Shown in pieces: positions 14,267 to 46,404 of a stretch of 64,000 nucleotides of DNA. The position numbers were made by a program, and so were the translations under genes. This stretch comes from an uncultured Burkholderiales bacterium (GTDB taxonomy: Bacteria > Bacteroidota > Bacteroidia > UBA8524): contig CAZOZL010000002.1 of NCBI GenBank assembly GCA_964584305.1, positions 211,336-275,335 on the forward strand. The letters are read 5' to 3'. A model generated the notes under the pieces. It was given only the letters and a program-made list of their open reading frames with translations. It did no database searches and had not been told where the DNA came from. Within the stretch, counting starts at the first letter, position 1, and every line of letters begins with the position of its first letter.

Positions 14267-14363
14267 TTTTGCTATTGGTTGGTGGTATTTAGCCTTTAGT
14301 TCGTGTTATAATAGCTAAGGAATAAAGGTTTCCTAAATAGTTCATTAAACAATGACGAAAATA

Positions 14364-15575: not shown

Positions 15576-15579
15576 TATT

Positions 15580-16671: not shown

Positions 16672-16678
16672 AATATTG

Positions 16679-22960: not shown

Positions 22961-22975
22961 TAAATAACTTAAAAA

Positions 22976-30050: not shown

Positions 30051-30409
30051 TTATCTTTAGCTAATTCTTGAAGTTTTTTTTCGCTTAAACTATCCCAACT
30101 TTCAAACCTAAGCGCCCTATCGTCTATATATATATCTCCATTGGGTTTCCCAAAGTATATCTCATCGTACTCAATATTGTACTTGTCCAACCATTCTAAT
30201 GTAATTTTTCCAACGTTTTTTACTACCTTTCCTAAGTTTGCCTGACAAGTAGCCATATTTCGAGCTGTTTGTATAATTACATAATGCCCTTGTTTTCTAA
30301 GCCCTGAAATAAACTCCGAAGCTCCTTCTTTGGGCAATACATCAGTGTAAGATTGATTTTTTTGTTTTAGGTAACAAATGGTACCGTCTAAATCTATAAT
30401 TAATCGCAT
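30047..30409 (-). CDS. Small HAD-superfamily phosphatase
   Basis: Motif I IIDLDGTI, motif II TAR, motif III/IV GKP...IYIDDR. 120 aa. Confidence 0.8.
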   Translation of the reverse strand: MRLIIDLDGTICYLKQKNQSYTDVLPKEGASEFISGLRKQGHYVIIQTARNMATCQANLGKVVKNVGKITLEWLDKYNIEYDEIYFGKPNGDIYIDDRALRFESWDSLSEKKLQELAKDK

Positions 30410-33233: not shown

Positions 33234-34667
33234 TTAAGCTGAAATTTGTTGGGGTAATATCTCTGTATGAAATTTTTGAATATTTGAAAAATTAGCGAAA
33301 TACTGATTTACTATTTCTTTTGCTTCTAGGCTTATACTAAAATCATTCTCTAACAAATTATCTAGCGTTTTATATACTTTTTCTTTGGTTTTGCAATGGT
33401 AGGTTGCCCCTTGTTGGATAAATTTTGTTTCGTGATCAAACTCGCCTTTTAAATCGATGGTTATTACAGGTTTTTCCATATACATTGCTTCTAAAGCTGT
33501 TGTTGATGCCCCCGTTAATACAACATCTGCTATTTTAATCCAATCGAAAATGGTATCTCTTCCTTGAAAACGGTCGAACTTATATACTTCACTAAGCTCT
33601 TCTGTATCATCATTCCCAATAATATTGTCGTAGTACTCAATGTTATCTTTTCCGTGAAGTTTAAAAACAAAATAATACTCTTGCTTTTTATCAACTATCA
33701 AATTCTCAAGTACTTCTAATATAGCTTTATGGTGTTCTATGCTAACTGTATGACCTGGACCTGATAGTAGTACTAAAGCAATTTTCCTGTTTTTTGGTAA
33801 CGATTGAACTACTTTTTCTTGGAAAAAAGTAGTAGGCTTAGCTTTTAGCTGTTCTCTAAGGTATGGAGCTCCTAATGTTATAACTTTATCATTGTTAATG
33901 CCTTCTTTTTTTATTAATACATTACGCGCATAATCACCAAAAACAAGGTAGTTAGAACATATGTGTAAATTCTCTATAAACTCGTCGGACAAAAGCCCAT
34001 GCATTAAATAATAAGTCTTAATGTTTTTCTTATTACATATGTCAATAATCACTCTACCAGTAAAAAGTAAATCATTGAATATATACACAAATTTTATTTT
34101 GTTTACATCAGTAATTTTATAAATAAAGCGTTTTATAATTGAGTAGTTACTATAATTATCATTAAGCAATTGTGTTATATCATCTCTATTCTCAATTCCA
34201 ATTCGAAATTTAGAAATAACATTTTGTATTTGTACGGCTTTAAATTTTGATGCCCTAATTATAATTTTTGGAATAAACACAATATCGTCTGTTTTAAACC
34301 CCTCTGAAATTGATTTTATATATTTTTTTTTATTTGTTACAAATAATGGTTTAAATTTAATTATATCTTCCTTTAAAGGTATGGCGTGTTTTAAATGACT
34401 TGGCTCGTTTATGACAACTATGCAGCCAAATGATTTAGATTTTAGTACCTTATTAAGTCTTCTTTTTGCTAAGTAGAGTTCTTTAATTGAGAAAAGAACT
34501 CTTTTTATAAGACTAATCTCACTTTTAGCATAGGCTTCACGTCCTTTAACTAATAGGTAAATTTTTAAAAAAGAGTAGTTGATAAATTTCTTTAATTCAC
34601 TAACCTCTTTTTGTTGGTTTACTGAACGATAAAAATTTAAGAATTTCTCGTCTAAGCTATCCTGCAC
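33234..34667 (-). CDS. GT-B-fold transferase resembling the CDP-glycerol glycerophosphotransferase (TagB/TagF, Glyphos_transf) family; KpsC/KpsS-like alternative
   Basis: The C-terminal motif ADVVLTGASTTALEAMYMEKPVITI parallels the TagF LITDYSS...E...KP motif. Conserved His residues (LMHGLL, KLHGKD). Confidence 0.45.
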   Translation of the reverse strand: MQDSLDEKFLNFYRSVNQQKEVSELKKFINYSFLKIYLLVKGREAYAKSEISLIKRVLFSIKELYLAKRRLNKVLKSKSFGCIVVINEPSHLKHAIPLKEDIIKFKPLFVTNKKKYIKSISEGFKTDDIVFIPKIIIRASKFKAVQIQNVISKFRIGIENRDDITQLLNDNYSNYSIIKRFIYKITDVNKIKFVYIFNDLLFTGRVIIDICNKKNIKTYYLMHGLLSDEFIENLHICSNYLVFGDYARNVLIKKEGINNDKVITLGAPYLREQLKAKPTTFFQEKVVQSLPKNRKIALVLLSGPGHTVSIEHHKAILEVLENLIVDKKQEYYFVFKLHGKDNIEYYDNIIGNDDTEELSEVYKFDRFQGRDTIFDWIKIADVVLTGASTTALEAMYMEKPVITIDLKGEFDHETKFIQQGATYHCKTKEKVYKTLDNLLENDFSISLEAKEIVNQYFANFSNIQKFHTEILPQQISA

Positions 34668-34678
34668 TTAATTATCTA

Positions 34679-35326
34679 CTAAAATTCTATAAAAGTTTTT
34701 AAAATGCTAAGCCCATTTTCGCCACTCTTTTCTGGGTGAAATTGTGTGCCAAAAATATTATTTTTCTGAAAAGCAGAGGTGAATTTTATGTCCCCAAAAT
34801 TAGTATATGACAATACATCATTTTTATTGGCAATATTAGCAAAATAAGAGTGAACGAAGTACATGTACTGTGCCTCTTGATTGTTCTGAAAAATACTTTT
34901 TTCCCAAGTTTTACCAACTGGCATATTTATTTGTGCCCATGCTACATGTGGTATTTTATTCTTACTTCCATTACTATTAATGGAGTGGAGTTTTATTATT
35001 TCACCATCTACAAGGTTTAACCCCTCGGTTTCTTCTATTTCAAAACCCTTGGTTAGCATCATTTGCATACCTAAACATATTCCTATAATAGGTATTTGCT
35101 TTTTTGATAAAACATTTTTTATCTCATCAAAAAAACCACGCTTTTTTAACTCTGAAATTCCCAGCGGGAAAGCTCCTACGCCTGGTAATACGATTCTATC
35201 GGCAGTAGCAAGTTTCTTAGGGTCATCTGTAATCTCTGTCTCAACTCCAATATGCTCAAAGGCACGTGTTATACTTAGCAAATTACTAAGCCCATAATCT
35301 ACAATTACAACTTTTTTAGTCATCAA
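34679..35326 (-). CDS. HisH-like class I glutamine amidotransferase (WbuY/PseA-partner type, not histidine biosynthesis)
   Basis: Catalytic Cys in IIGICLGMQ and His-Glu in the FHPEKS region. It is adjacent to the HisF-like and amidotransferase genes in a glycan locus. Confidence 0.85.
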   Translation of the reverse strand: MMTKKVVIVDYGLSNLLSITRAFEHIGVETEITDDPKKLATADRIVLPGVGAFPLGISELKKRGFFDEIKNVLSKKQIPIIGICLGMQMMLTKGFEIEETEGLNLVDGEIIKLHSINSNGSKNKIPHVAWAQINMPVGKTWEKSIFQNNQEAQYMYFVHSYFANIANKNDVLSYTNFGDIKFTSAFQKNNIFGTQFHPEKSGENGLSILKTFIEF

Positions 35327-36068
35327 AACGTACGTTTAAATCATGTTCACGCGCTAGTTGTTTTACTTCGCGTATGGTTGTTTTCTTAAAGTGTAGTTGT
35401 TTAGCAATTGCAACTGCATCAGCATATTGGCAAGCATCAACAAAGTCCATAGGTTTGCCAAAACCGCCGCTTGCTATTATGGGAACATCTACAATTTGAG
35501 AGACTCCTTTAATCAAATCTATATCCATACCTTTTGAAGTGCCATCCATATCCACAGAGGTTAAGAATATTTCTCCTGCACCTCTATCAACCCCTTGTTT
35601 CACCCATTCCATAACATCAATATCGGTAGCTTCTCTTCCAGTATCAATATAGCACACCCATTTACCAGGGGCTGTTTTTTTGGCTTGAACACTAAGTACC
35701 ATACATTGATTACCAAAGTTTTTAGCAACCTCGGTAATCAATTCAGGATTTTTTATTGCGCCAGTATTTATAGCAACCTTATCCGCTCCACTTCGCAACA
35801 TTTCTTGTGCTTGTTGCACCGAACGTATTCCTCCACCTACTGTTATAGGTACGAATACATTACGGGTAGTTTCAGAGACTAACTCTTTCATAGAGTTACG
35901 GTTGTATAAACTGGAGATTGAGTCTATATATATAATTTCATCAATTCCACTCTTATAATAATCTATAAAGAAGGGTTTGGGGTCTCCCAAGAAACGCCAG
36001 CCTTCTAGGTGAATACCTTTAATAAGACGGTTTAATTTTATATCAAGTCTTGCAATGACTCTTTTCAT
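35316..36068 (-). CDS. HisF-like cyclase subunit (WbuZ type)
   Basis: TIM-barrel HisF motifs (RLDIK, VGGGIRS, DKVAINT, SGG). Confidence 0.85.
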   Translation of the reverse strand: MKRVIARLDIKLNRLIKGIHLEGWRFLGDPKPFFIDYYKSGIDEIIYIDSISSLYNRNSMKELVSETTRNVFVPITVGGGIRSVQQAQEMLRSGADKVAINTGAIKNPELITEVAKNFGNQCMVLSVQAKKTAPGKWVCYIDTGREATDIDVMEWVKQGVDRGAGEIFLTSVDMDGTSKGMDIDLIKGVSQIVDVPIIASGGFGKPMDFVDACQYADAVAIAKQLHFKKTTIREVKQLAREHDLNVRFDD

Positions 36069-36069
36069 A

Positions 36070-37275
36070 TTATACAGTAGGGAATTTCAGTTTCCACTCT
36101 CCATTTACTTTCTCCCAAAGATGAGGGGAACGTGATACGTCTATTACTTCCCAATATTTCTCTTCAGTAATACCCATATATTCTATTACATCTTGGAAGT
36201 ATTTTTTAGGAAATTCGCCATCGTATTTTTTCATTAAATCAACAGCCTCTTCACGGGTAATAAAGCCGTCACGAATATCACGGTTAGCATCATTCATTGC
36301 TCTACCTTGACCGAATTTAGCATACATAGTATAGTAGTGTTGTCCGTCTATTTTATCATCTAAACTAGCAAACTTGGTATATGTGCCTTCACTACGTCCA
36401 TCAGGGTTAGATTCGAAGCCAGTGTTTTCTTTAACATAGTAATAGTTCTCTTGTGGAGACCAGTTTACATAATAGCTAAAGAAGTGAACTTCCATATTAA
36501 TTTTACGTACTTCTTCTTCTAATAATGGCTTATATAAAAACAAATCATTATCAGTAATGTCATAATTTTTCTTTAAATCATTTATATGAACTCCACCAAA
36601 GTATATATCTTCATCGTAGGATTTTGTACTAAAATGGCTTATGTCCATTAGTGGAGAAAGATTTTCGCTAAAGTGATTGTGTGCCTCGGCTTGGTTTTCT
36701 CCATACATAATTAAAGGCACATCGTATTGTATTGCTGCACGTGGTGCAACATTCTTTTGCCCTATAATAAAAGGTTGGAATGGATTTACTAAGTTTTCGA
36801 AGGCTAAACGAGTGAGCAAGCGATGTACTTTACCATTTGGCGTAACTTTAATATTATCCAAACCAGCGTCAATCATATGATTAAAGTTTTTCCACCCAAT
36901 ATCTGTGTACATATGTGGTGCCCATGTAACAGTTAAAGGGTTCATGTTATACTTGTTTTTAAGCAAGTGTGCTACATAAATACTATCCTTACCACCTGAG
37001 GCTGGAACTACAACATCATAACGACCATCATTTCTACGGTGGCGGTCACAAAGTTCAGTCAATTCTTTTTCTCTATCATCCCAATTTATTTGGGTATTTT
37101 TATACTCAAACCACTTACAGGTATCGCATATACCATCCTCCCCAAAACCGACAGTATCAATAATAGTATCTACCTTTTTAAACTCACGTTGAGTACTTGG
37201 TCTTTGATTTGAGATTACACATTTTTTGCAAAAAATTACATTTTCGGGTAATCCGTGAAGTGTTGTTTGTGTCAT
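36070..37275 (-). CDS. N-acetyl sugar amidotransferase (WbuX/PseA/WbpG family, PP-loop ATP pyrophosphatase)
   Basis: PP-loop SGGKDS and N-terminal Cys cluster (CKKC...CDTC). It is co-located with the HisH/HisF homologues, as in E. coli O145 wbuXYZ and C. jejuni pseA-hisH-hisF. Confidence 0.8.
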   Translation of the reverse strand: MTQTTLHGLPENVIFCKKCVISNQRPSTQREFKKVDTIIDTVGFGEDGICDTCKWFEYKNTQINWDDREKELTELCDRHRRNDGRYDVVVPASGGKDSIYVAHLLKNKYNMNPLTVTWAPHMYTDIGWKNFNHMIDAGLDNIKVTPNGKVHRLLTRLAFENLVNPFQPFIIGQKNVAPRAAIQYDVPLIMYGENQAEAHNHFSENLSPLMDISHFSTKSYDEDIYFGGVHINDLKKNYDITDNDLFLYKPLLEEEVRKINMEVHFFSYYVNWSPQENYYYVKENTGFESNPDGRSEGTYTKFASLDDKIDGQHYYTMYAKFGQGRAMNDANRDIRDGFITREEAVDLMKKYDGEFPKKYFQDVIEYMGITEEKYWEVIDVSRSPHLWEKVNGEWKLKFPTV

Positions 37276-37279
37276 TTAT

Positions 37280-38185
37280 TTACTTTTTAATTAAAATACT
37301 TCTTGAGTTAATTGAAAGAATATCGGCAATTCTAGAATCCTTTAAAATAGGAACTCTATGAACATACCTAAATAAAAATTTAAATATATGCTTACCAGGA
37401 ACAGATACATTAAACCATTGTATTTTGTATCCGGTTTTAATTGCAATTTGTTTAAATTTTTTAATTGTTATACCATTTAAATCTTTATATGCTCTTATGT
37501 CTTTAACCTTTGTAGGTTTATCTACCAAACCAGGATAAATTTTATAAAGATTTTTATTCTCTTCTGCCAGCTTAATCATTACATTACAAATAGTTTTCTC
37601 ACTAAATAAAACATTTGCCCATGGTATTTTTAAACCATGTTTAAGATGTAAGCCATATTTGCTGTAGATTGATGGAAATGCTGGAACAAATAACATTCCA
37701 CCCGGTCTCAATATTTTATGTACTTGCTCCATAACTTTTGCAGGTTCCATAAAATGCTCAAATACATTGTCTGCAATTACGATGTCAAAGCTTTCTGGTT
37801 CAAAAGTCATCTCATAGGCATTCATCTCCAAATACTCCACAGGTAATCCTTTTTCAACTCCTATCTTGTCTTCTACCATCTTTTTGAACTTATTGGCTAC
37901 AGACAGGTTTTTTGTATTCAGGTCAATTGCTTTTACACTCTTAGCCATGTTTATGGCCATAAACATGGATATACCTCCGTGTCCACAGCCTATTTCTAAT
38001 ACCTCTTTATCTAAAAAATCTATATCCAAACCATGTTTAACTTTTCTAAAGTATTGATTATGTAAAGCATAATTCATTAGGTATTCATCCGACTCAAAAT
38101 CTTGTCCTGTATATTTATACTCTTTCTTATATGGGCTTGACCACATTTTAGAAAGCTTATATAAAATTATTTCGTTAAGCTTCAT
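37280..38185 (-). CDS. Class I SAM-dependent methyltransferase
   Basis: Motif I LEIGCGHGG and the acidic post-I residue (IDLN). Confidence 0.8.
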   Translation of the reverse strand: MKLNEIILYKLSKMWSSPYKKEYKYTGQDFESDEYLMNYALHNQYFRKVKHGLDIDFLDKEVLEIGCGHGGISMFMAINMAKSVKAIDLNTKNLSVANKFKKMVEDKIGVEKGLPVEYLEMNAYEMTFEPESFDIVIADNVFEHFMEPAKVMEQVHKILRPGGMLFVPAFPSIYSKYGLHLKHGLKIPWANVLFSEKTICNVMIKLAEENKNLYKIYPGLVDKPTKVKDIRAYKDLNGITIKKFKQIAIKTGYKIQWFNVSVPGKHIFKFLFRYVHRVPILKDSRIADILSINSRSILIKK

Positions 38186-38198
38186 ATTAGTCCTAAAA

Positions 38199-39638
38199 TT
38201 ATCTTTTTAGTATGGTTTTGTAGTTCTTATGCAGCTTAAACCTAAATACAAAAAAGGTTAATATACATACTACTATTAGACTCCTTAAAAATATAGCATC
38301 TTTTTGAAGCATAAGGGATAGTGCTACTGTAATTGCAGCAACCAATATTGCTAAACCTATATTTTTAGCTTTAAAATATCTTAAAAATTCTTTACCCGAG
38401 TAAAAGTAGGCAGCAACAGCCCATGCTATAAAACCAAGACTGTTAGCCCATGTTATTGCATATATTCCTAAAGTATCTATAAACGTAATTGTAATAATTA
38501 AATTTACGATTACCCCTATTCCTGTAATTAGTGATATGAACTTAGTTTTCTTATTATAAAATATCTCAACCGTAAACAGCATATAAAACACTTGTCCAAT
38601 AAAGCCAATTGCTAGTATTGGCACCAAATCTGCCGATTGATGAAACCGTTCTGGTGTCATAATCGGAATAAGAGCAGGGAGTAAAATAAATACTGAAGAG
38701 AAAAGTACACTTGCTCCCAAAACAACCATTTGATAAATGTTTTTTATACTGCTCTCTTTCTCTTCTTTTCTTAATGAAAAATATACAGGGGAAAAAGCTC
38801 TGTTAAACATATTATAAAATATATCTAACGGTTGAATAAATCTTAGTGCCAAAGAAAAGATACCTAAAGCAGCAGTTGATTCCTTATAATTTAATATACC
38901 CTTTGAAAGTAAAGGTGCTGCTGCAGCAAAAGCGTGGTGTGGCAACAAACCTAAACCATATTTTAAAGATTCTTTAAGCATGCTAGGGTCAAAAGAACCA
39001 TTTACATACTTACGCAAATAGTATTGTGCTTGAAGAAAGAATAATAACGTAGTAATAAGTTGAGACATGAATAATCCCAGAACACCCATTTCAAAAACTA
39101 CAACAAAAAGAACTGCTAATAATATACCTAAAAACACATTAGATACATTTATAATAGCCATGTAGCTTGACTGTTCCTTACTCTGTATCAAACGTTTTTG
39201 TAAGTCACTATTTGCACTAAATGAAGAATTAATTAATACTATGAGTATAAAGGGAATAAACAGTACTCCTGGTAATATACTTTGTGAATAAAAGTAAAAA
39301 ATTACTCCGACTACAATAGCTAATACACTACTCGATACTAACAGTAACCTGTGAACTGTGGTAATATAATCTTTTAGCTTACCCTCATCATCCTTATAGT
39401 CGAAATAGAATCTATTTACTGAACCTGGAACGCCTAAACGCATAAAAATCACTAAGAAAACACTAAAAGAAGCACATAATTCTAGAACTCCATAATCTTC
39501 TGGCGATAAGTAGATGGTATATAAAGGTATCAGAAAGAAACCTATTATTTTGGCTATAACATTGGCTGCACCATAATTTAGTGTTCCCATTGCTAGCCTA
39601 TAAAAGGTGGATTTATGACTGATATCTTTTATTGCCAC
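38199..39638 (-). CDS. wzx: Wzx-type oligosaccharide flippase (MOP/PST family)
   Basis: 479 aa with about 12-14 TM helices and polysaccharide-biosynthesis-protein topology. Confidence 0.85.
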   Translation of the reverse strand: MAIKDISHKSTFYRLAMGTLNYGAANVIAKIIGFFLIPLYTIYLSPEDYGVLELCASFSVFLVIFMRLGVPGSVNRFYFDYKDDEGKLKDYITTVHRLLLVSSSVLAIVVGVIFYFYSQSILPGVLFIPFILIVLINSSFSANSDLQKRLIQSKEQSSYMAIINVSNVFLGILLAVLFVVVFEMGVLGLFMSQLITTLLFFLQAQYYLRKYVNGSFDPSMLKESLKYGLGLLPHHAFAAAAPLLSKGILNYKESTAALGIFSLALRFIQPLDIFYNMFNRAFSPVYFSLRKEEKESSIKNIYQMVVLGASVLFSSVFILLPALIPIMTPERFHQSADLVPILAIGFIGQVFYMLFTVEIFYNKKTKFISLITGIGVIVNLIITITFIDTLGIYAITWANSLGFIAWAVAAYFYSGKEFLRYFKAKNIGLAILVAAITVALSLMLQKDAIFLRSLIVVCILTFFVFRFKLHKNYKTILKR

Positions 39639-39645
39639 TTAGTTT

Positions 39646-40365
39646 TTAAGTTAATAAGGTTTTTTCATACAATATCTCTGCTAACTCAAAATCTATTATT
39701 TCATTTATATCCACTGATGTCTCGGGGGGCATTATATACCCTAAACTATCAGGACTAATAGCTGATTTTCTTTTTAATATACTTTCTTTTCTTGTAGCAT
39801 ATACGGCACAATTGCGCACATAAATATCGGGTAGCTCATGTGCAGCAAAACGACCGTCCTCTTCTTCCATTAGCGGCACTAATTCGTTTCCCTCCATTTT
39901 TTTCAACTTTATAGGATGTACCATATGGTCTACCTTTACTACGCTAACTGCTGACTCTTTATGAGGGTTGCTAAGTAATAACTCTATCGTATTATCAATA
40001 TCCGATGGGGTGCGTAGTGGTGAACTGGGTTGTAGTATAACTATAATATCATACTTGTATCCTTTTTGTTCTTCTAAAATATCTAATGTGTGTGTAACAT
40101 AGTCTATTGCAGGAGACTCATCATCTGATAATTCGACAGGACGTTTAAGGTTTATTATTTGAGGGTATTTTTCACCTATCGCCAATACTTCATCACTATC
40201 TGAACTCAAAACAATATCAGTTAACAACTTAGTCTCTAAACTCTGCTGAATAGCTATATCTACCAATGTTGTCTTTGCAAACGGACGAAAATTTTTGTGC
40301 TTCACCCTTTTTGAGCCCTCTCTTGCAGGAATAATAGCTACTATTTTAGGCATCTTGGTATTCAC
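39646..40365 (-). CDS. CMP-nonulosonic acid synthetase (acylneuraminate cytidylyltransferase family: NeuA/LegF/PseF)
   Basis: N-terminal IVAIIPAREGSKRVKHKN signature. Short form, without an esterase domain. Confidence 0.85.
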   Translation of the reverse strand: MNTKMPKIVAIIPAREGSKRVKHKNFRPFAKTTLVDIAIQQSLETKLLTDIVLSSDSDEVLAIGEKYPQIINLKRPVELSDDESPAIDYVTHTLDILEEQKGYKYDIIVILQPSSPLRTPSDIDNTIELLLSNPHKESAVSVVKVDHMVHPIKLKKMEGNELVPLMEEEDGRFAAHELPDIYVRNCAVYATRKESILKRKSAISPDSLGYIMPPETSVDINEIIDFELAEILYEKTLLT

Positions 40366-41308
40366 TTTGGAAGGCTTCTTTTAATTTCTCTAACAAAAAC
40401 AATTCTGTTTTTGTGAATGATTCGTAAGTGTTGCCGCCTATATGTGGGGTGATAATTAAATTATCGTTTTGTTTGGCATAGGCTATAAGCCTATTGTTTG
40501 CCGTGTTATATTCATCTTCAATAACATCTAATGCTGCCCCTGAAATAGTCTTATTTTTTAGTGCTATGGCTAATGCCTCACTATCAATTACTCCACCACG
40601 TGCTGTATTAATTAAGATAGCAGTAGGTTTCATCTTTTTTATTAAATCTGCATTAACCAAATGGTGTGTACTTTCTTTATACGCCACATGAATAGTTAGT
40701 ATATCAACGGTAGAAAAAAGTTTTTCAATTGTATCTACTTTTTTGCAAATAGAAGTATCAAACGTTTTTATATCATAGCCGTAAACATCAGCACCAAATG
40801 TTTTAAAGTAGCCAGCAGTTATAGTTCCTAATCTGCCTACACCTAATATGCCTACTTTTTTACCGTAAATTTCACTGCCTTTAAATAGGTCTCTATTCCA
40901 AACTCCTGCATTTACTGATGCAATAGCTTGTGGTACTTTACGCAACAATGAGAGTGTTAAGCCTAAAGTATGTTCAGCAGTTGCACGAACTGATTTTAAA
41001 AAATCAGTTTCTCCACGCAGTGAAAGCACTTGAATACCTCTTTTTTTACAGGCTTCTAAATCAATATGGTCTAAGCCTGTTACGGGACAAAGAATAAAAC
41101 GGGTTTTGGTTTCAATAGGGAAGTCTTTCTCCTCTATTCTATACTTTAAACGAAACCAAAATACATCGTATTTAGCCAATGCTTGTGTAAGTTTATCTTT
41201 CTCAATCTCTTCTAATGTAACATTACCTATAGCTTGTAGGCCTTTTACGGCTTCGGAGCTAAAGTTTAGTGTTTCTGCTACTAAAATATTTGGAGATGTG
41301 TTTCCCAA
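40346..41308 (-). CDS. D-isomer-specific 2-hydroxyacid dehydrogenase family (glycerate / phosphoglycerate dehydrogenase-like)
   Basis: NAD motif GILGVGRLG and the catalytic R/E/H region (NTARGG...ITPHIGG). Confidence 0.85.
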   Translation of the reverse strand: MGNTSPNILVAETLNFSSEAVKGLQAIGNVTLEEIEKDKLTQALAKYDVFWFRLKYRIEEKDFPIETKTRFILCPVTGLDHIDLEACKKRGIQVLSLRGETDFLKSVRATAEHTLGLTLSLLRKVPQAIASVNAGVWNRDLFKGSEIYGKKVGILGVGRLGTITAGYFKTFGADVYGYDIKTFDTSICKKVDTIEKLFSTVDILTIHVAYKESTHHLVNADLIKKMKPTAILINTARGGVIDSEALAIALKNKTISGAALDVIEDEYNTANNRLIAYAKQNDNLIITPHIGGNTYESFTKTELFLLEKLKEAFQSEYQDA

Positions 41309-41309
41309 C

Positions 41310-42467
41310 TTAATACATTAATATTTTTTCAATAGAAAGTGGTGCAGTGGCTAACAAGTCGGCAATTTTTTTACCCGCCGTGCCATCACCATAAATCTTA
41401 TCACTTTGGTAGTGCCCATTTTCTATTTGCTTTGATATAGCTTGCTTAATGGCCTCTTTATTATATCCAACATCAACAACATTTTTGCCTCGCTCTCTGC
41501 CTGCTTGCCTACCGCCTATATTTATAACGGGTATGCCTAAATAAGCACTTTCCCTAATACCAACACTAGAGTTCCCTACTAAGCACTTTGCATTTTTTAA
41601 TAGTTTTAAGAAATCTTCTGATTCCATATTTTTAAAGAAATGGAAGTTTGAAGTATCTCTTAATTCTCTAAACTCACGTATTCCTTTTGATGTTCCGTCT
41701 GATCCTGCATCCACATTAGGCCAAAACCACAAAGCAGGAATATTTAATTCTTGCACAGCAAAAAGCGTCTCTTCAATATGGTTGCGCGAAAGTTCATATT
41801 CAGTAGTTAAAGGATGTTGCATTACTACAATATATCCTTCACTCATATCAACTGTTTTTCCTGCCCCAACATATCTCTCGAAAGGGTCGAAATCAAGAAT
41901 AGGGTTTTGAAGTATCTTATCTGCTAAATCTATTGAAGGGCAACCTGTTAGAAATATTTTCTTGGGGTTTTCGCCCATTTTTATCAATCGCTCTTCTGCT
42001 TTTGGGGATGCCACAAAGTGTAAATCGGCAAGTTTGGTAATTGCATGGCGTACTTTCTCATCAATATTACCTGTTACTTCACCGCCTTGTACATGGGCAA
42101 GTGGAATATTCATGTATGATGCTGATATAGCCGTTGCCATAGTTTCAAAACGGTCTGCCACTGTTACTACAATATCTGGCGAAAGGTTATCAAAAACGGT
42201 TGAGAGTTCTAATATCCCAATACCTGTGGTTTTTGCTGCTGCGGTAAGGTTTTCGCCTTCAAGTACATTAAATACTTTGGCAGTAATTTCAAACCCATCT
42301 TCTTTTATAAAATTAATTGCTGAACCATAGCGGTCTAATAATGCTGATGCCGCTACTACTAATTGTAATTCTAAATCAGGATGATTTTGTATTTCCTTTA
42401 ATGCCGTTTTTATGCGACTATAACTGGGTCGGGCGGTTACAACTACACAAACTTTACGTTTCGCCAT
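41310..42467 (-). CDS. Hydrolysing UDP-N-acetylhexosamine 2-epimerase (NeuC/LegG-like)
   Basis: The VVVTARPSY...HVQGGE motif is typical of NeuC-type hydrolysing 2-epimerases. Confidence 0.8.
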   Translation of the reverse strand: MAKRKVCVVVTARPSYSRIKTALKEIQNHPDLELQLVVAASALLDRYGSAINFIKEDGFEITAKVFNVLEGENLTAAAKTTGIGILELSTVFDNLSPDIVVTVADRFETMATAISASYMNIPLAHVQGGEVTGNIDEKVRHAITKLADLHFVASPKAEERLIKMGENPKKIFLTGCPSIDLADKILQNPILDFDPFERYVGAGKTVDMSEGYIVVMQHPLTTEYELSRNHIEETLFAVQELNIPALWFWPNVDAGSDGTSKGIREFRELRDTSNFHFFKNMESEDFLKLLKNAKCLVGNSSVGIRESAYLGIPVINIGGRQAGRERGKNVVDVGYNKEAIKQAISKQIENGHYQSDKIYGDGTAGKKIADLLATAPLSIEKILMY

Positions 42468-43468
42468 TACTTAATATCGTTATCGGTTAAAAAGTCCCAC
42501 TTGTTTAAATCACGGAGCAAAACTTTGCCCAACACTTCCTTATATAAAGTGGTGCTTATGCCTTCTGTTGCAGGTTTCTTACTCTCCAAATCACTAAAGG
42601 TTAGGATATGCCCTTGAGGAAGGTTCTTATTTACTGCCAGCGATTTACCAAACATGGTTTTTAGCTGTGCATATTTCTCGTTATCGTTTTTGTTTACTGG
42701 GTTTTGCAGTGATGTATCAATATAGTTCACGCCTTCTCTTAGTTGTTTCAGTTGCTGTATTGTAAGTGATGAGGTAGCATCAGGACCAAACATTTTTTTA
42801 TCAAACACTGCATGAAACTCTATTAACTCGGCTCCTAAAGCTACTGCTGCCAAACTTGGATAGATTGTACCCGAATGGTCTGAAAGTCCTACTTTTAATC
42901 CATAACGCTGTTTCATTTCAGAAACAACATTTAACCCTGAGTTTTGCGCTTCGGTGGGGTATTGTGTAGTACATTGAAAAAGTACTATTTCATTTCCAAA
43001 ATCTTTTATAAAATCAACAGTGGCGTCTAATTCTTTATAATTACTCATACCAGAGGATAGTAAAATAGGTTTCCCTGTTTTGACTATTTTCTCTAACATC
43101 AAAAAATTAGTTACTTCTCCTGATCCTATTTTATACCGTTTTACCTTTAGTTTTTCTAATAAATCAACTGCTGCTAATGAAAATGGGGAAGCCATAAACT
43201 CTACTCCTTTTTCTTCGCAATGTTGTTTTATACCTGCCCATTGTTCGGCGGTAAATTCCATACGTTGCCAATAATTGTATCGGGTGGCATCTTCATAAGA
43301 AAAATTCACTCGAAACGGCTCTTTGGCACTACTTTCAGCTTCGGCTATATGTATTTGCCACTTTATAGTGTTTACATTGGCTTCTGCTAAAGCATCAATA
43401 TATGAGTGTGCTAAACCAAGGCTTCCATCGTGAGCTTGCCCTATTTCAGCTATTAATTCTACGTTCAA
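42467..43468 (-). CDS. Nonulosonic acid synthase (NeuB/LegI/PseI family) with a C-terminal SAF domain
   Basis: N-terminal IAEIGQAHDGSLGLA, a TIM-barrel NeuB domain, and a C-terminal antifreeze-like domain. Confidence 0.9.
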   Translation of the reverse strand: MNVELIAEIGQAHDGSLGLAHSYIDALAEANVNTIKWQIHIAEAESSAKEPFRVNFSYEDATRYNYWQRMEFTAEQWAGIKQHCEEKGVEFMASPFSLAAVDLLEKLKVKRYKIGSGEVTNFLMLEKIVKTGKPILLSSGMSNYKELDATVDFIKDFGNEIVLFQCTTQYPTEAQNSGLNVVSEMKQRYGLKVGLSDHSGTIYPSLAAVALGAELIEFHAVFDKKMFGPDATSSLTIQQLKQLREGVNYIDTSLQNPVNKNDNEKYAQLKTMFGKSLAVNKNLPQGHILTFSDLESKKPATEGISTTLYKEVLGKVLLRDLNKWDFLTDNDIK

Positions 43469-44526
43469 GAATTGGGTAGTTTATATCCGTAATAATCAAC
43501 AAACCAATCTACAAAATGCTTCACACCATCTTTTATATTAGTACCTGGCTTAAAGCCTATATACTCAAAAAGACTTTCTACGTTTGCGTAGGTTTTGGGA
43601 ACATCGCCCATTTGTAGTGGTTTCTTAATAATTTCTGCTTTTGTACCTATTACCTCCTCAATAGCTTCTACAAAACCCATAAGTAATACAGGGTTGTTGT
43701 TTCCAATATTAAAAATTTGATAGGGTGCAGAGCTTAGATGAGTGGGCAAATCATCGTTTGCCAACTCGGGTTTAGGATTAGGTGCTTTATCAATTAAACG
43801 CGATATACTCTCGGTTATATCATCTACAAAGGTGAAATCACGCATCATATCTCCGTGGTTAAATACTTGTATGGGTTTACCATCTAATATATTTTTGGTG
43901 AAGATATATAGTGCCATATCAGGACGACCCCAAGGACCATACACTGTGAAAAAACGCAAGCCTGTTGTTGGCAACCCGTATAAATGTGAATACACGTGCG
44001 CCATAAGCTCATTGCTTTTTTTAGATGCTGCGTATAAAGACATAGGGTGGTCAACATTTTGCTCAACCGAAAATGGGTTGCGTTTGTTTAGCCCGTACAC
44101 CGATGAGCTTGATGCATATATAAGGTGTTTTACCTTATTGTGCCTACAAGCCTCTAATATATTTAAATAGCCTTGTATATTACTATCTAAATATGCTTGA
44201 GGATGGGTTAGTGAATAACGAACGCCTGCCTGTGCAGCAAGATTAATCACTACGTCAAATTTTTCAGTTTCAAATAGCTTATAAAGATTTTCTTTATCAC
44301 CCATATTTAACTGGATAAAGAAACTATTTTTATCTCCTTCTATTAGGGTATTATACTCTATATTTTCTACAATAAATCCTTGATTACGAAGTCTATCTTG
44401 TTTGATTTTAACATCGTAATAATCGTTTATAGAGTCTAATCCATAGACAGCATTTTTGCCATTATTTAACTTTTTAGCTAAATGATGCCCTATAAAACCT
44501 GCTGTTCCTGTAATTAAAATTTTCAA
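43465..44526 (-). CDS. NAD-dependent nucleotide-sugar epimerase (UDP-glucuronate/UDP-GlcNAcA 4-epimerase-like, CapI/WbpP type)
   Basis: ILITGTAGFIGHHL and YAASK motifs, 353 aa. Confidence 0.8.
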   Translation of the reverse strand: MKILITGTAGFIGHHLAKKLNNGKNAVYGLDSINDYYDVKIKQDRLRNQGFIVENIEYNTLIEGDKNSFFIQLNMGDKENLYKLFETEKFDVVINLAAQAGVRYSLTHPQAYLDSNIQGYLNILEACRHNKVKHLIYASSSSVYGLNKRNPFSVEQNVDHPMSLYAASKKSNELMAHVYSHLYGLPTTGLRFFTVYGPWGRPDMALYIFTKNILDGKPIQVFNHGDMMRDFTFVDDITESISRLIDKAPNPKPELANDDLPTHLSSAPYQIFNIGNNNPVLLMGFVEAIEEVIGTKAEIIKKPLQMGDVPKTYANVESLFEYIGFKPGTNIKDGVKHFVDWFVDYYGYKLPNS

Positions 44527-44544
44527 AATGCTAACCGCTTTTTG

Positions 44545-45837
44545 TTAAAGTCTTCCGTCAACTTGATTTCTATCTAAAAAACCTTTCACATCGTATATCA
44601 CACTTGTATCACCAGTCAAGTCGTTCAAATCTAATGATGCAAACTCATTGTGAGATACTGCTAATATGACGGTGTCAAATTTTTTGTTTACCCCATCCAA
44701 TGTTTTAATCGTATCATATCCATACTCGCGTTTCACCTCTACAGGCTCTGCCCAAGGGTCGTATATAGTTACATTGGTATGATACTCGTTTAATTCTGAA
44801 ATAATATCTACTACTTTGGTGTTACGAACATCAGGGCAGTTTTCTTTAAAAGTAAAGCCTAATAACAATACATCAGCGTCTTTTACTTTAATGTCTTTCT
44901 TCAACATTAATTTAACGACCTCATTGGCCACATGAGCACCCATACCATCATTTAACCGGCGACCTGCTAATATAATTTCAGGGTGATACCCTGTTGTTTG
45001 TGCTTTTTGTGCTAAGTAATAAGGGTCAACGCCTATACAGTGTCCGCCAACTAAACCTGGTTTAAATTTTAAGAAATTCCATTTAGTTCCTGCGGCTTCT
45101 AATACATCGTTAGTATCTATACCCAAACGGTTAAATATTTTTGATAGTTCATTTACAAAAGCAATGTTAATATCACGTTGTGAATTTTCTATCACTTTTG
45201 CGGCTTCTGCTACTTTTAATGTTGGTGCAAGGTGCGTACCTGCTACAATTACCGATTTATATAAATCATCAACTACTTTACCAATTTCAGGCGTTGAGCC
45301 TGCAGTAACTTTTAATATTTTAGTTACCGTGTGTTCTTTATCACCTGGGTTAATACGTTCAGGCGAGTATCCGCAATAAAAGTCTTCATTAAACTTCATT
45401 CCTGATACACGTTCTAACACAGGCACACACTCTTCTTCTGTAGCACCTGGATATACTGTTGATTCATAGATTACTATATCGCCTTTGTTTAATACTTTAG
45501 CTACTGTTTCACTTGCCTTGTATAAAGGGGTTAAATCAGGATGGTTATAGCTATCTACAGGTGTGGGCACAGTAATTATATATATATTACTGTCAGCTAT
45601 ATCTTGTACATCATAACTAAACCTAATATTAGAACCTGGCTCACAGTCTTCACCATTTATTACTGATTTTAAATAGTCATTAGTAACTTCTAATGTAGCA
45701 TCATGCCCACTGCTTAACTCGCTAATTCTATTTTGATTTATATCAAACCCAACGGTTTGATATTTTTTACCAAACTCAACGGCTAATGGTAAACCCACAT
45801 AGCCAAGTCCAATTATTGAGATTTTATGCTTATTCAT
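44545..45837 (-). CDS. UDP-N-acetyl-D-glucosamine / mannosamine 6-dehydrogenase (WbpA/WecC/TviB family)
   Basis: [14 protein letters not shown] Rossmann motif and catalytic Cys in GGHCIGVDP. Confidence 0.9.
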
Positions 45838-45840
45838 AAA

Positions 45841-46404
45841 TTACTTATTCCAGATTAGTAAATGATTTTTAGGTAATATTTGACTTTTCAATTTAGAAAA
45901 TTGCTCCGATGTATAAACTAAGTACCTCACTTTTTTATTGATAATTGCTTCCGCTTTTTCAATCAACTTCATTAAGTACTCTTTGCTAATATTGCCAATA
46001 ATTAATAGGTCTATTATTGGGCTATCTATTCCCTTGCCTAACTCTCCTACCAAATACACTCGCTCCAGTTCTCCTAAGTTTGATAATACTTGCCCTACTA
46101 TCCTGTCTAAGCCAGTGTATTTAAACACTATGCTATTAATATCAGGAAATAATGGATGAGATGTATTTGCTCTAAAAATTTTTTTGTTTCCTTGCGCTTG
46201 GCTTTTAAGTAATCCCGCATCTTCAAGTTTATTAAGTTCTAACCTAATGGCATTAGAACTCTCTCCAAACTCAGACTCTAAACCACGCAAATGGGCTTCG
46301 TTATCTTTGTTCAAGAAAAATTTTAATAAGAGTTTTACTCTTGTCTTTGAAGAGATTAGTGTGTCTAACACTTTAGTATTATTTACTATAAAAACAGGGA
46401 GCAC
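45841..46404 (-). CDS. Winged-helix (ArsR-like) DNA-binding protein with a C-terminal domain of uncertain fold; candidate locus regulator
   Basis: The N-terminal region (residues ~14-70) has an HTH pattern (KTRVKLLLKFFLNKDNEAHLRGLESEFGESSNAIRLELNKLEDAGLL). It sits between the wzc terminator and the nucleotide-sugar genes. Confidence 0.45.
   Translation of the reverse strand: MLPVFIVNNTKVLDTLISSKTRVKLLLKFFLNKDNEAHLRGLESEFGESSNAIRLELNKLEDAGLLKSQAQGNKKIFRANTSHPLFPDINSIVFKYTGLDRIVGQVLSNLGELERVYLVGELGKGIDSPIIDLLIIGNISKEYLMKLIEKAEAIINKKVRYLVYTSEQFSKLKSQILPKNHLLIWNK

What the first reader, a model, noticed from the sequence alone, without database searches (positions are those of the whole stretch)
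34679..43468. Nonulosonic-acid module with an acetamidino (PseA/WbuX-HisH-HisF) and methyltransferase extension
Contiguous genes encode NeuB-like synthase, NeuC-like hydrolysing 2-epimerase, CMP-NulO synthetase, Wzx, a SAM methyltransferase, a PP-loop N-acetyl-sugar amidotransferase, and HisF/HisH paralogues. The amidotransferase-HisH-HisF trio is the known machinery for converting N-acetyl to N-acetimidoyl groups (E. coli O145 wbuXYZ; C. jejuni pseA-hisH-hisF). An adjacent methyltransferase recalls C. jejuni ptmG/ptmH, which make Leg5Am7Ac and its N-methylacetimidoyl derivative. The inference is a sialic-acid-like sugar carrying an acetimidoyl, possibly N-methylated, group. No 4,6-dehydratase or aminotransferase (PseB/C, LegB/C) is present in the window, so the NulO backbone could be Neu5Ac-type or rely on genes elsewhere.
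Basis: partly seen in the sequence, partly recalled or inferred. Interest (0 to 1): 0.6.

Follow-up and report, generated by a model that had tools for sequence, protein, structure and literature searches.

The report
Sialic-acid-like sugar operon with amidine-forming enzymes
A capsule operon of an uncultured Bacteroidota bacterium makes a sialic-acid-like nine-carbon sugar and very probably turns its N-acetyl group into a positively charged acetamidino group, a known kind of modification seen here on an unusual, apparently neuraminic-type pathway.

Summary
Window 34679-43468 (minus strand) holds tightly packed genes for NeuB, NeuC, CMP-NulO synthetase, Wzx, a SAM methyltransferase, a WbuX-type PP-loop amidotransferase, and HisF and HisH paralogues.

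Comparative genomics supports the main inference, an acetimidoylated nonulosonic acid (NulO):
- The amidotransferase is 51% identical to the Legionella pneumophila enzyme (PDB 8WEX).
- In 80 genomes carrying this subfamily, NeuB/NeuC/NeuA lie within 10 kb in most.
- In Bacteroidota relatives the trio sits directly between NeuC and NeuA.
- A 91%-identical copy sits in a true pseudaminic acid cluster.

Two parts of the interpretation change:
- **Methyltransferase.** It belongs to a conserved cassette that also occurs without any amidotransferase, so the N-methyl-acetimidoyl idea is not supported.
- **Backbone.** It looks neuraminic-type rather than Leg or Pse. NeuC groups with human GNE, and NeuB forms its own clade next to the one holding Neisseria NeuB. 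No aminotransferase is found in the window, and one is rarely found in related loci.

The predicted product is therefore a Neu5Am-like sugar with further unknown tailoring. This is a new variant of a known kind and is moderately interesting.

The parts
42467..43468 (-). NeuB-family nonulosonic acid synthase (333 aa); member of a distinct clade
   Evidence: PF03102 220.8 bits plus SAF. NeuB_NnaB 281 bits (cutoff 399.65) and PseI 211 bits (cutoff 340), so both equivalog cutoffs are missed. Best solved relative is N. meningitidis NeuB at 156 bits. In an NJ tree it forms its own clade, sister to the clade holding NmNeuB. About 65%-identical homologues occur in many phyla.
41310..42467 (-). NeuC, hydrolysing UDP-GlcNAc 2-epimerase (385 aa)
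   Evidence: TIGR03568 400 bits, cutoff 235.9. Best PDB hit is the human GNE epimerase domain 4ZHT at 252 bits, against A. baumannii LegG 5XVS at 197 bits. In an NJ tree it groups with GNE, away from LegG and L. pneumophila NeuC.
40346..41308 (-). D-isomer 2-hydroxyacid dehydrogenase, SerA-like short form (320 aa); role in the pathway unknown
   Evidence: PF02826 171.9 bits. PGDH TIGR01327 203 bits, below cutoff. Best PDB hit 1WWK. The GxGxxG motif and the Arg/Glu/His catalytic residues are visible in the sequence. Present in 11 of 21 close WbuX loci and 17 of 29 NeuB-clade metagenome loci.
39646..40365 (-). CMP-nonulosonic acid synthetase (NeuA-like, about 235-239 aa)
   Evidence: PF02348 74.3 bits. 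PseF 123 bits, below the 205.7 cutoff. The best solved relatives are CMP-Neu5Ac synthetases 6IFD and 1EYR.
38199..39638 (-). Wzx-type flippase
   Evidence: PF01943 64 bits. It keeps the same position in related cassettes.
37280..38185 (-). Class I SAM methyltransferase with a C-terminal extension (301 aa); acceptor unknown
   Evidence: Methyltransf_11 70 bits. Homologues sit after Wzx in NeuB-NeuC-HADH-NeuA cassettes that lack WbuX. No homologue at the blastp threshold in any of the 80 WbuX loci; phmmer gives only marginal class I matches. The AlphaFold model (pLDDT 93.9) has only generic class I methyltransferase neighbours.
36070..37275 (-). N-acetyl sugar amidotransferase (WbuX/NASAT family, PP-loop ATP pyrophosphatase, 401 aa)
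   Evidence: TIGR03573 356 bits, cutoff 203. 437 bits and 51% identity to L. pneumophila NASAT 8WEX. The PP-loop SGGKDS and the four cysteines C16/C19/C50/C53 are conserved with 8WEX.
35316..36068 (-). HisF paralogue (WbuZ-like); proposed ammonia-channel partner
   Evidence: PF00977 196 bits. hisF 262 bits (cutoff 294.55) and WbuZ 249.7 bits (cutoff 299.7), so both cutoffs are missed. Gate residues R5/E46/K99/E167 are kept in 69 of 69 paralogues. Cyclase residue D130 is Q here; across the 69 it is E in 30, Q in 26 and D in 11.
34679..35326 (-). HisH paralogue (class I glutaminase)
   Evidence: TIGR01855 203 bits, cutoff 105.4. The GICLGMQ cysteine motif and the HPE motif are present.
33234..34667 (-).
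   Evidence: Weak hits to NF046086 (BFO_1060 family, 49.5 bits, cutoff 200) and to TIGR04396. BFO_1060/Tanf_01245 are the T. forsythia Leg/Pse-derivative transferases (PMC5420450). Homologues follow the NulO genes in L004, L007, L008, L017, L021, L023, L087-L092 and L173. The AlphaFold model (pLDDT 92.8) is a generic GT-B.
43465..45837 (-). TviB-like UDP-GlcNAc 6-dehydrogenase (44545-45837) and TviC-like SDR (43465-44526), directly upstream; probably supply a HexNAc uronic acid for the same polymer
   Evidence: TviB model 572.6 bits, cutoff 592. The SDR hits TviC at 112 bits and GalE at 130 bits. A homologous dehydrogenase lies near NeuB in 8 of 29 metagenome loci.

Best explanation
This is the sugar-nucleotide core of a Wzx/Wzy-type capsule or exopolysaccharide locus in an uncultured Bacteroidota bacterium.

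**Proposed pathway**
1. NeuC hydrolyses and 2-epimerises UDP-GlcNAc to ManNAc.
2. The NeuB homologue condenses ManNAc with PEP to give a neuraminic-type nonulosonic acid.
3. NeuA activates that acid as the CMP-sugar.
4. The amidotransferase trio then converts the 5-N-acetyl group into an acetimidoyl (acetamidino) group.
5. The GT-B protein at 33234-34667 probably transfers the modified sugar to the repeat unit. Wzx then flips the unit, Wzy polymerises it, and Wza/Wzc export it.

**How the trio is proposed to work.** HisH hydrolyses glutamine. The HisF paralogue channels the ammonia. The PP-loop enzyme uses ATP to activate the amide carbonyl. This mechanism is inferred from the family, and its timing at the CMP-sugar stage is inferred from the Campylobacter precedent.

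**What is not placed.** The 2-hydroxyacid dehydrogenase and the methyltransferase are conserved tailoring enzymes of this cassette type. Their substrates are not known, and they are not tied to the amidotransferase.

**Shown versus inferred.** Shown here are the gene identities, motif conservation, conserved synteny and co-occurrence. Inferred are the substrate of each enzyme, the order of steps and the identity of the sugar.
For: **Family assignments.** Scores exceed the curated cutoffs for NeuC, WbuX and HisH.

**Amidotransferase.** It is 51% identical (437 bits) to L. pneumophila NASAT 8WEX. The PP-loop and the tetracysteine motif are kept.

**Association with NulO genes.** Counts below are over the 79 loci from other genomes (L008-L086).
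- NeuC lies within 10 kb in 62 loci, NeuB in 58 and NeuA in 48.
- The 21 closest loci (WbuX 72-79% identity) carry the window-type NeuB (52-64%) and NeuC (60-72%). Only 3 of these 21 have a LegB-like SDR or a DegT gene.
- The recurring orders are NeuB-NeuC-WbuX-HisF-HisH-NeuA-HADH and NeuB-NeuC-NeuA-WbuX-HisF-HisH.
- The same adjacency appears in 4 independent metagenome loci.

**Other NulO contexts for the same subfamily.**
- The 91%-identical WbuX of L007 follows PseG, PseI (499 bits) and FkbH.
- The more distant WbuX loci carry LegB, DegT, PtmE-like and PglD-like genes.
- The WbuX tree tracks NulO pathway type.

**HisF and HisH paralogues.** The HisF paralogue keeps the ammonia-gate residues but has D130Q. 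HisH keeps its Cys and His-Pro-Glu motifs.

**Neu-type backbone.**
- NeuC groups with GNE.
- NeuB is sister to the clade that holds NmNeuB.
- NeuA's best solved relatives are CMP-Neu5Ac synthetases.
- There is no DegT in the window. DegT occurs in only 2 of 29 NeuB-clade metagenome loci.

**Conservation in relatives.** Close relatives from other samples keep the identical NeuB-to-GT477 gene order.

**Literature.**
- A mono-amino NulO with a 5-acetimidoyl group exists in F. nucleatum 25586 (PMC13014188).
- A putative CMP-Neu5Am was detected in C. jejuni (bioRxiv 10.64898/2026.04.20.719630).
Against: - No chemistry is available, and nothing here shows the product.
- NeuB misses the curated NeuB_NnaB cutoff (281 vs 399.65 bits). 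It belongs to a clade with no characterised member that I could identify, so its substrate could differ from ManNAc.
- The conserved 2-hydroxyacid dehydrogenase has no place in a plain Neu5Ac pathway. The sugar is therefore probably not simply Neu5Am.
- Only 64 kb of a 678-kb contig could be read, so Leg/Pse-type early genes elsewhere in the genome cannot be excluded.
- The trees are neighbour-joining trees without support values.
- E. coli WbuX, P. aeruginosa WbpG and C. jejuni PseA/PtmG could not be compared directly.
- The 91%-identical WbuX in a Pse cluster shows that the enzyme's sequence alone does not say which NulO it modifies.
Confidence: 0.7

Rival explanations
1. The NulO is a 5,7-diamino sugar (legionaminic or pseudaminic type). 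Its early steps (4,6-dehydratase, aminotransferase, N-acetyltransferase) are encoded elsewhere in the genome, and the trio makes a classical Leg5Am7Ac- or Pse5Ac7Am-like sugar.
For: - All well-established Am-NulOs except fusaminic acid are diamino sugars.
- The closest WbuX (91%, L007) sits in a Pse cluster.
- The L. pneumophila homologue belongs to a Leg locus.
- JGI names two 66-67%-identical NeuB homologues 'N,N'-diacetyllegionaminate synthase'.
- Only 64 kb of the genome was visible.
Against: - NeuB is only about 30% identical to the Leg-type and Pse-type synthases in the loci, and it falls outside both clades.
- NeuC groups with GNE, not with LegG or L. pneumophila NeuC.
- Loci of this NeuB clade almost never carry DegT or LegB (3 of 21 and 2 of 29). 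Leg-type WbuX loci usually do: 25 and 27 of 58.
- There is no DegT in the window.
Confidence: 0.15
2. The trio modifies another N-acetyl sugar of the repeat unit, as WbpG or E. coli O145 WbuX do. An example would be the HexNAc uronic acid made by the TviB/TviC-like pair upstream. On this reading its position next to the NulO genes is incidental.
For: - A TviB-like dehydrogenase and an SDR lie directly upstream of NeuB.
- WbuX of E. coli O145 is credited with FucNAm although that O-antigen locus also makes Neu5Ac (PMC10607449).
- The SugarBase preprint reports possible acetimidoyl UDP-HexNAc.
Against: - In the closest loci the trio is embedded between NeuC and NeuA, and the uronic-acid genes are mostly absent there.
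- The subfamily co-occurs with NulO genes across phyla.
- The window has no FnlABC or WbpABDE-type set.
Confidence: 0.08
3. The HisF and HisH genes are ordinary histidine-biosynthesis genes that happen to lie in the locus.
For: HisH passes the TIGR01855 cutoff. HisF scores 262 bits on the hisF model.
Against: - HisF misses the hisF cutoff (294.55 bits).
- HisF has Gln in place of the cyclase residue D130.
- The pair always travels with WbuX.
- No other his genes lie nearby.
Confidence: 0.01

Closest known systems
Legionella pneumophila serogroup 1 LPS locus (Leg5Am7Ac homopolymer; NASAT 8WEX, hisF/hisH paralogues, neuA/B/C, ORF8 N-methyltransferase)
   Same: The amidotransferase is of the same subfamily (51% identity). 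The same trio lies next to neuA-neuB-neuC (L079). A methyltransferase is present in the locus (PMC13306086).
   Different: The Legionella locus carries PglD-like and DegT genes beside neuC, and its NeuB and NeuC are only 30-32% identical to the window's, placing them in other clades. The window methyltransferase is linked to the cassette rather than to the amidotransferase. Direct comparison with ORF8 was not possible.
Campylobacter jejuni PseA / PtmG (amidotransferases) and PtmH (methyltransferase) of the flagellin glycosylation locus
   Same: Conversion of an N-acetyl group on a CMP-nonulosonic acid to acetimidoyl. A methyltransferase lies nearby.
   Different: The Campylobacter substrates are Pse and Leg. 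The window methyltransferase family occurs without any amidotransferase.
Tannerella forsythia Pse5Am7Gra / Leg-derivative O-glycan system (Tanf_01245 / BFO_1060 transferases)
   Same: Same phylum. The terminal NulO carries an Am group. The GT-B transferase after the trio weakly matches the BFO_1060 family. The related locus L007 has PseG/PseI/FkbH plus the trio, which fits a Pse5Am7Gra-like product.
   Different: The window has no Pse genes and no FkbH. The match to the transferase family is far below cutoff (49.5 vs 200 bits). T. forsythia is reported to lack pseA/ptmG homologues (PMC5378307).
Fusaminic acid (5-acetimidoylamino-3,5,9-trideoxy-non-2-ulosonic acid) of Fusobacterium nucleatum ATCC 25586
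   Same: It is the documented mono-amino NulO with a 5-acetimidoyl group, so an Am group on a NulO without a 7-amino group has a precedent.
   Different: Fusaminic acid is 9-deoxy with a tentative L-glycero-L-gluco configuration, which implies a Pse-like route from a 6-deoxy-HexNAc. The window has a NeuC/GNE-type epimerase and no obvious 6-deoxy route. The gene cluster for Fus was not available for comparison.
E. coli O145 wbuXYZ and P. aeruginosa O5 wbpG-hisH-hisF
   Same: The same three-protein acetamidino machinery (TIGR03573 family).
   Different: Those systems act on L-FucNAc and on ManNAc3NAcA (PMC10607449). The window lacks those sugar pathways.

Membership tests
N-acetyl sugar amidotransferase (WbuX/NASAT, TIGR03573) | Score above the curated family cutoff | tested here: met
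   356.3 bits against a cutoff of 203.2.
N-acetyl sugar amidotransferase (WbuX/NASAT, TIGR03573) | PP-loop SGGxDS motif and tetracysteine (CxxC...CxxC) zinc site | tested here: met
   SGGKDS at residues 93-98 and C16/C19/C50/C53 are invariant in the alignment with 8WEX. The motifs are as described in PMC10607449.
N-acetyl sugar amidotransferase (WbuX/NASAT, TIGR03573) | Adjacent HisH and HisF paralogues | tested here: met
   HisF 35316-36068 and HisH 34679-35326 lie directly downstream, with gaps of 1 and -11 nt.
N-acetyl sugar amidotransferase (WbuX/NASAT, TIGR03573) | ATP- and glutamine-dependent conversion of a sugar N-acetyl group to acetamidino | not testable with these tools
   Needs an enzyme assay or product chemistry.
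N-acetylneuraminate synthase equivalog (TIGR03569 NeuB_NnaB) | Score above the equivalog cutoff | tested here: not met
   281.2 bits against 399.65. The Pfam NeuB domain is clearly present at 220.8 bits. File it as a NeuB-family synthase of a separate clade.
Pseudaminic acid pathway (PseB/C/H/G/I/F) | PseI and PseF above cutoff; PseB, PseC and PseG present | tested here: not met
   PseI 210.9 bits (cutoff 340.25). PseF 123.4 bits (cutoff 205.7). No DegT or PseG in the window.
Legionaminic acid pathway (LegB/C/H/G/I/F, PtmE) | 4,6-dehydratase, aminotransferase, N-acetyltransferase and LegG-type epimerase next to the synthase | tested here: not met
   No DegT, PglD-like or CBS-NTP-transferase match in the window. 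NeuC groups with GNE and not with LegG. The rest of the genome is not visible.
Hydrolysing UDP-GlcNAc 2-epimerase (TIGR03568 NeuC_NnaA) | Score above the equivalog cutoff | tested here: met
   400.2 bits against 235.9.
Imidazole glycerol phosphate synthase, cyclase subunit HisF (histidine biosynthesis) | hisF equivalog cutoff, and catalytic Asp11 and Asp130 (residue roles taken from my knowledge of T. maritima HisF) | tested here: not met
   262 bits against 294.55. D11 is kept and D130 is replaced by Gln. Gate residues R5/E46/K99/E167 are kept.
Amidine N-methyltransferase (C. jejuni PtmH / L. pneumophila ORF8 type) | Co-occurrence with, and dependence on, the amidotransferase | tested here: not met
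   Homologues of the window methyltransferase occur in cassettes without WbuX in 3 of 3 independent contexts. None reaches the blastp threshold in the 80 WbuX loci; phmmer gives only marginal class I matches. Sequence comparison with PtmH or ORF8 themselves was not possible.
BFO_1060-family NulO-derivative transferase (NF046086) | Score above the model cutoff | tested here: not met
   49.5 bits against 200 (one search does not apply). Only the fold (GT-B) and the conserved position support a transferase role.

The most novel reading that the evidence does not exclude
The cassette makes a sialic acid that has not been described in any glycoconjugate. It would be a neuraminic-type (mono-amino, ManNAc-derived) nonulosonic acid carrying a 5-acetimidoyl group (Neu5Am-like), further altered by a dedicated 2-hydroxyacid dehydrogenase and a methyltransferase.

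Cassettes that pair Neu-type genes with the amidotransferase trio are widespread in environmental Bacteroidota, Alphaproteobacteria, cyanobacteria, Fibrobacteria and Methanosarcinales. In sister loci the same slot holds a deacetylase and a formyltransferase, so the 5-N-acyl group is swapped in a modular way.
Probability: 0.35. Interest if true: 0.7.

Novelty: new variant of a known kind. Interest (0 to 1): 0.5.

Why it matters
Acetamidino groups cancel the negative charge of a sialic-acid-like sugar. They change surface charge, phage and antibody recognition, and lectin binding. So far they are firmly known on the diamino sugars (Leg, Pse) and on fusaminic acid.

If the cassette type found here really puts the group on a neuraminic-type backbone, it would add a new natural sialic acid. 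It would also show that environmental bacteria and archaea swap the 5-N-acyl group (acetyl, formyl, acetimidoyl) by exchanging small gene modules.

The analysis also flags a conserved dehydrogenase with no known role in nonulosonic acid synthesis. The gene set is compact and could be expressed heterologously to test all of this.

Tried and rejected
- **Exact-sequence look-up of NeuB** found nothing. The amidotransferase look-up identified the source as a JGI metagenome contig.
- **blastn of hisH-hisF-wbuX against all complete E. coli genomes**, meant to reach O145 wbuXYZ, gave no match. E. coli WbuX could therefore not be compared.
- **T. forsythia parallel for the dehydrogenase** (supplying a glyceroyl group). 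The paper gives no genes for Am or Gra, and L007 uses FkbH instead. The idea is left open.
- **Literature searches** linking a 2-hydroxyacid dehydrogenase to NulO clusters found nothing useful.
- **Promoter and terminator scan** was uninformative. Promoter-like sites were below the shuffle expectation, and the terminator-like sites lie inside genes.
- **AlphaFold models plus Foldseek** for the GT-B protein and the methyltransferase gave only generic neighbours: 2-epimerases, TagF/TarL and a polysialyltransferase for the first, and assorted O-, N- and C-methyltransferases for the second. Neither acceptor could be assigned.
- **Uronic-acid-derived substrate idea.** I considered that the upstream TviB/TviC-like pair feeds a uronic-acid-derived substrate to NeuC and NeuB, which would give the dehydrogenase an alpha-hydroxy-acid substrate. 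The dehydrogenase pair is enriched near this NeuB clade (8 of 29 loci) but absent from most trio cassettes. I rate this as speculation only.
- **Pfam scans of set-specific neighbour genes** gave no clue to the dehydrogenase's role.

Full report
**Observation**

Window 34679-43468 lies inside one long minus-strand polysaccharide locus, roughly 6020-49859. The locus begins with Wza (49059-49859) and a Wzc-like protein (46559-49048). It sits next to a SusE/Por-tail protein, which marks the organism as Bacteroidota.

- NeuB-family synthase 42467-43468
- NeuC 41310-42467
- CMP-NulO synthetase 39646-40365
- Wzx 38199-39638
- a class I SAM methyltransferase 37280-38185
- a WbuX-type amidotransferase 36070-37275
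- a HisF paralogue 35316-36068
- a HisH paralogue 34679-35326

Gene spacing from 46404 to 27053 is -20 to +23 nt, so these genes are almost certainly co-transcribed.

The sequence comes from a JGI metagenome contig of 678 kb. Close relatives from other samples keep the identical order from NeuB to the GT-B gene after HisH.

**Is the amidotransferase trio tied to the nonulosonic acid?**

*Sequence.* The window enzyme scores 437 bits and is 51% identical to the L. pneumophila N-acetyl sugar amidotransferase 8WEX. The PP-loop and the four zinc-site cysteines are conserved.

*Co-occurrence.* I scanned one genome per species with an alignment of the two proteins and kept the 80 best loci with 10-kb flanks. 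I then called ORFs and clustered them.
- Over the 79 loci from other genomes (L008-L086), NeuC lies within 10 kb in 62, NeuB in 58 and NeuA in 48.
- The 21 closest loci (WbuX 72-79% identical, Bacteroidota MAGs) carry the same NeuB clade (52-64% identity) and NeuC (60-72%) as the window.
- In these loci the trio is usually inserted into the NulO operon. The orders are NeuB-NeuC-WbuX-HisF-HisH-NeuA-HADH or NeuB-NeuC-NeuA-WbuX-HisF-HisH.
- The more distant loci (47-68% identity), which include L. pneumophila, carry a LegB-like dehydratase (27 of 58), DegT (25), a CBS-NTP-transferase (25) and a PglD-like acetyltransferase (14). This is the legionaminic acid route.

*A Pse context.* The closest genome hit, L007 (WbuX 91%, HisF 82%, HisH 66%), has the trio directly after PseG, PseI (499 bits), a Pse-associated methylase, a formyltransferase, a deacetylase and FkbH. 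That is a pseudaminic acid cluster of the T. forsythia Pse5Am7Gra kind.

*Tree and rival.* A WbuX tree tracks the NulO pathway type of the neighbourhood. This subfamily therefore serves nonulosonic acids of several backbones. The rival in which it modifies the upstream HexNAc uronic acid is unlikely, because the TviB/TviC-like genes are missing from most trio cassettes.

**The HisF and HisH paralogues**

HisH has the GICLGMQ cysteine and the HPE motif. The HisF paralogue misses both the hisF and the WbuZ cutoffs.

When aligned to HisF structures, it keeps R5, E46, K99 and E167. These four are invariant in 69 of 69 paralogues from the loci. It has Gln at D130; across the 69 the position is E in 30, Q in 26 and D in 11.

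From my own knowledge of T. maritima HisF, those four residues gate the ammonia channel, and D11 and D130 are the cyclase catalytic residues. The pattern fits a glutaminase-plus-channel pair that delivers ammonia to the PP-loop enzyme. It does not fit histidine synthesis.

**Which sugar?**

*NeuB.* It scores 281 bits on NeuB_NnaB (cutoff 399.65) and 211 bits on PseI (cutoff 340). It has thousands of homologues, many about 65% identical and spread across phyla: Flexithrix, Nibribacter, Adhaeribacter, Arcobacter sp. LA11 and Saprospiraceae. In a neighbour-joining tree with the solved N. meningitidis NeuB and C. jejuni PseI and all synthases from the loci, the window protein and its relatives form their own clade. 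That clade is sister to the one holding N. meningitidis NeuB. L. pneumophila NeuB and PseI fall elsewhere.

*NeuC.* Its best solved relative is the human GNE epimerase domain (252 bits), against A. baumannii LegG (197 bits). In a tree the window clade groups with GNE, apart from the LegG and L. pneumophila NeuC clades.

*NeuA.* Its best solved relatives are CMP-Neu5Ac synthetases.

*Missing early genes.* No DegT-type aminotransferase exists anywhere in the window.

*Metagenome survey.* A metagenome scan with an alignment of the NeuB clade gave 80 more loci. Of the 29 loci with at least 5 kb downstream of NeuB, the counts were as follows:

| Gene | Loci (of 29) |
|---|---|
| NeuC | 27 |
| NeuA | 26 |
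| HADH | 17 |
| Polysaccharide deacetylase | 6 |
| Amidotransferase trio | 4 |
| DegT | 2 |
| LegB-like SDR | 1 |

This clade's pathway therefore seems to need only NeuC, NeuB and NeuA, as a neuraminic-type route from UDP-GlcNAc would.

*A second group.* Compact NeuB-NeuC-(NeuA)-HisF-HisH-WbuX cassettes without LegB or DegT occur in other lineages. Their synthases cluster with N. meningitidis NeuB. They are found in Sphingomonas sp. Leaf21 and in Hyphomicrobiales, Sedimenticola, Fibrobacteria and Methanosarcinales MAGs.

*Literature.*
- A 5-acetimidoyl group on a mono-amino NulO has one documented precedent, fusaminic acid of F. nucleatum 25586.
- A 2026 preprint reports peaks consistent with CMP-Neu5Am in C. 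jejuni.
- I found no report of such a sugar in a polysaccharide.

**The methyltransferase**

No homologue at the blastp threshold appears in any of the 80 WbuX loci, and phmmer gives only marginal class I matches.

Its own homologues (45-56% identity, full length) were looked up in three independent contexts: a Bacteroidia MAG, JGI metagenomes and a Pirellulales MAG. All three show the same cassette without any amidotransferase. The gene order there is:

NeuB-NeuC-HADH-(deacetylase-formyltransferase)-NeuA-(two GFO oxidoreductases)-Wzx-MT-...-GT-B-AsnB-GT4-NTP-transferase/APH-phosphatase-NTP-transferase

The methyltransferase is thus part of a conserved cassette. Its acceptor remains unknown. 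The high-confidence model has only generic class I neighbours.

These cassettes also show that the position occupied by the trio in the window is a variable slot. In sister loci a deacetylase plus a formyltransferase-like enzyme occupy the pathway instead. This is independent support for the idea that the 5-N-acyl group of this sugar is what gets remodelled.

**The dehydrogenase**

It is a short SerA-like member of the family, with the nucleotide-binding motif and the Arg/Glu/His catalytic residues intact. It is translationally coupled to NeuC and NeuA and is present in more than half of the loci of this NeuB clade, with or without the trio.

I could not find any described role for such an enzyme in nonulosonic acid synthesis. 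Two candidates are supply of a D-2-hydroxyacid substituent and action on an alpha-hydroxy/keto acid function of the sugar. Neither could be tested. This is the main unexplained element, and it is the reason the product is probably not plain Neu5Am.

**Extent and mosaic structure**

The 477-aa GT-B protein after HisH (33234-34667) travels with the NulO genes in many loci. It weakly matches the family of the T. forsythia Pse/Leg-derivative transferases. The model confirms only a GT-B fold. I include it as the candidate NulO transferase.

The window locus is a mosaic:
- Wza to NeuA are 78-89% identical to a relative (L004) that lacks the trio and the methyltransferase.
- WbuX to the second NTP-transferase are 66-91% identical to L007, apart from the GT-B protein and the adjacent GT4 (43% and 57%). 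In L007 the trio serves a Pse pathway.

**Verdict**

The finding is real and its core inference is supported by conserved synteny across many genomes. The methyltransferase part is not supported. The backbone is most likely neuraminic-type, made by a distinct NeuB clade with an unexplained dehydrogenase. Acetamidino-NulO systems are known, so this is a new variant of a known kind. The more novel reading, a dedicated and widespread route to a Neu5Am-like sugar, is plausible but unproven without chemistry.

Noticed in passing
window 29328-32025: A three-gene block holds a 541-aa NTP-transferase (relatives carry an APH kinase-like C-terminal part), a 120-aa EcbF/BcbF-type capsule phosphatase and a 240-aa NTP-transferase. 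The block is conserved downstream of NulO cassettes in L007 and in a Pirellulales MAG (L091/L092). It probably activates an unknown phospho-substituent or sugar.
   Followed up: partly
window 33234-46404, compared with L004 and L007: The locus is a mosaic. The upstream half (Wza to NeuA) is 78-89% identical to L004, which has no trio. The part from WbuX onward is mostly 66-91% identical to L007, where the trio follows a pseudaminic acid cluster. GC content dips to 26.8% at 34001-35000.
   Followed up: partly
window 22058-23728 and 13628-17431: Two further deacetylase and formyltransferase-like sets lie downstream in the same locus. One is a CE4 deacetylase plus a formyltransferase. The other is a PIG-L deacetylase plus a formyltransferase-like protein. 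They suggest N-formylated or otherwise re-acylated amino sugars elsewhere in the polymer.
   Followed up: no
window 17424-18638: A 404-aa protein with weak matches to glucuronyl C5-epimerase, GH88 and other (alpha/alpha)6 families sits inside the polysaccharide locus. It could be a uronic acid C5-epimerase or a lyase-like enzyme.
   Followed up: no
window 45841-46404: A 187-aa protein with only weak helix-turn-helix matches sits at the head of the sugar genes. It is conserved (38-59% identity) in the same position in at least nine related loci (for example L017, L025, L093, L096, L116, L164). It may be a locus regulator.
   Followed up: no
L034, L041, L044, L048, L052, L056, L058, L059: Compact NeuB-NeuC-(NeuA)-HisF-HisH-WbuX cassettes without dehydratase or aminotransferase genes occur in Sphingomonas sp. 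Leaf21 and in Hyphomicrobiales, Sedimenticola, Fibrobacteria and Methanosarcinales MAGs. Their synthases cluster with N. meningitidis NeuB. L041 also carries a separate Leg-type set.
   Followed up: partly
L013, L016, L022, L028: These Bacteroidota loci hold a second, divergent PP-loop amidotransferase paralogue (about 375-388 aa) with a second HisF (and, in three of them, a second HisH). In three it lies next to FdtA-like and hexapeptide acetyltransferase genes. One locus thus carries two acetamidino systems, presumably for two different sugars.
   Followed up: no
L133 2982-8570: In this metagenome cassette two other methyltransferases are interleaved with the NulO and trio genes, one of them between WbuX and HisH. 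They are better candidates for amidine N-methylation than the window's methyltransferase.
   Followed up: no
window 24932-26644: A 570-aa protein with an Acetyltransf_6 (FemAB-like GNAT) domain follows a 408-nt gap after Wzy. It may add an amino acid or acyl substituent to the polymer.
   Followed up: no
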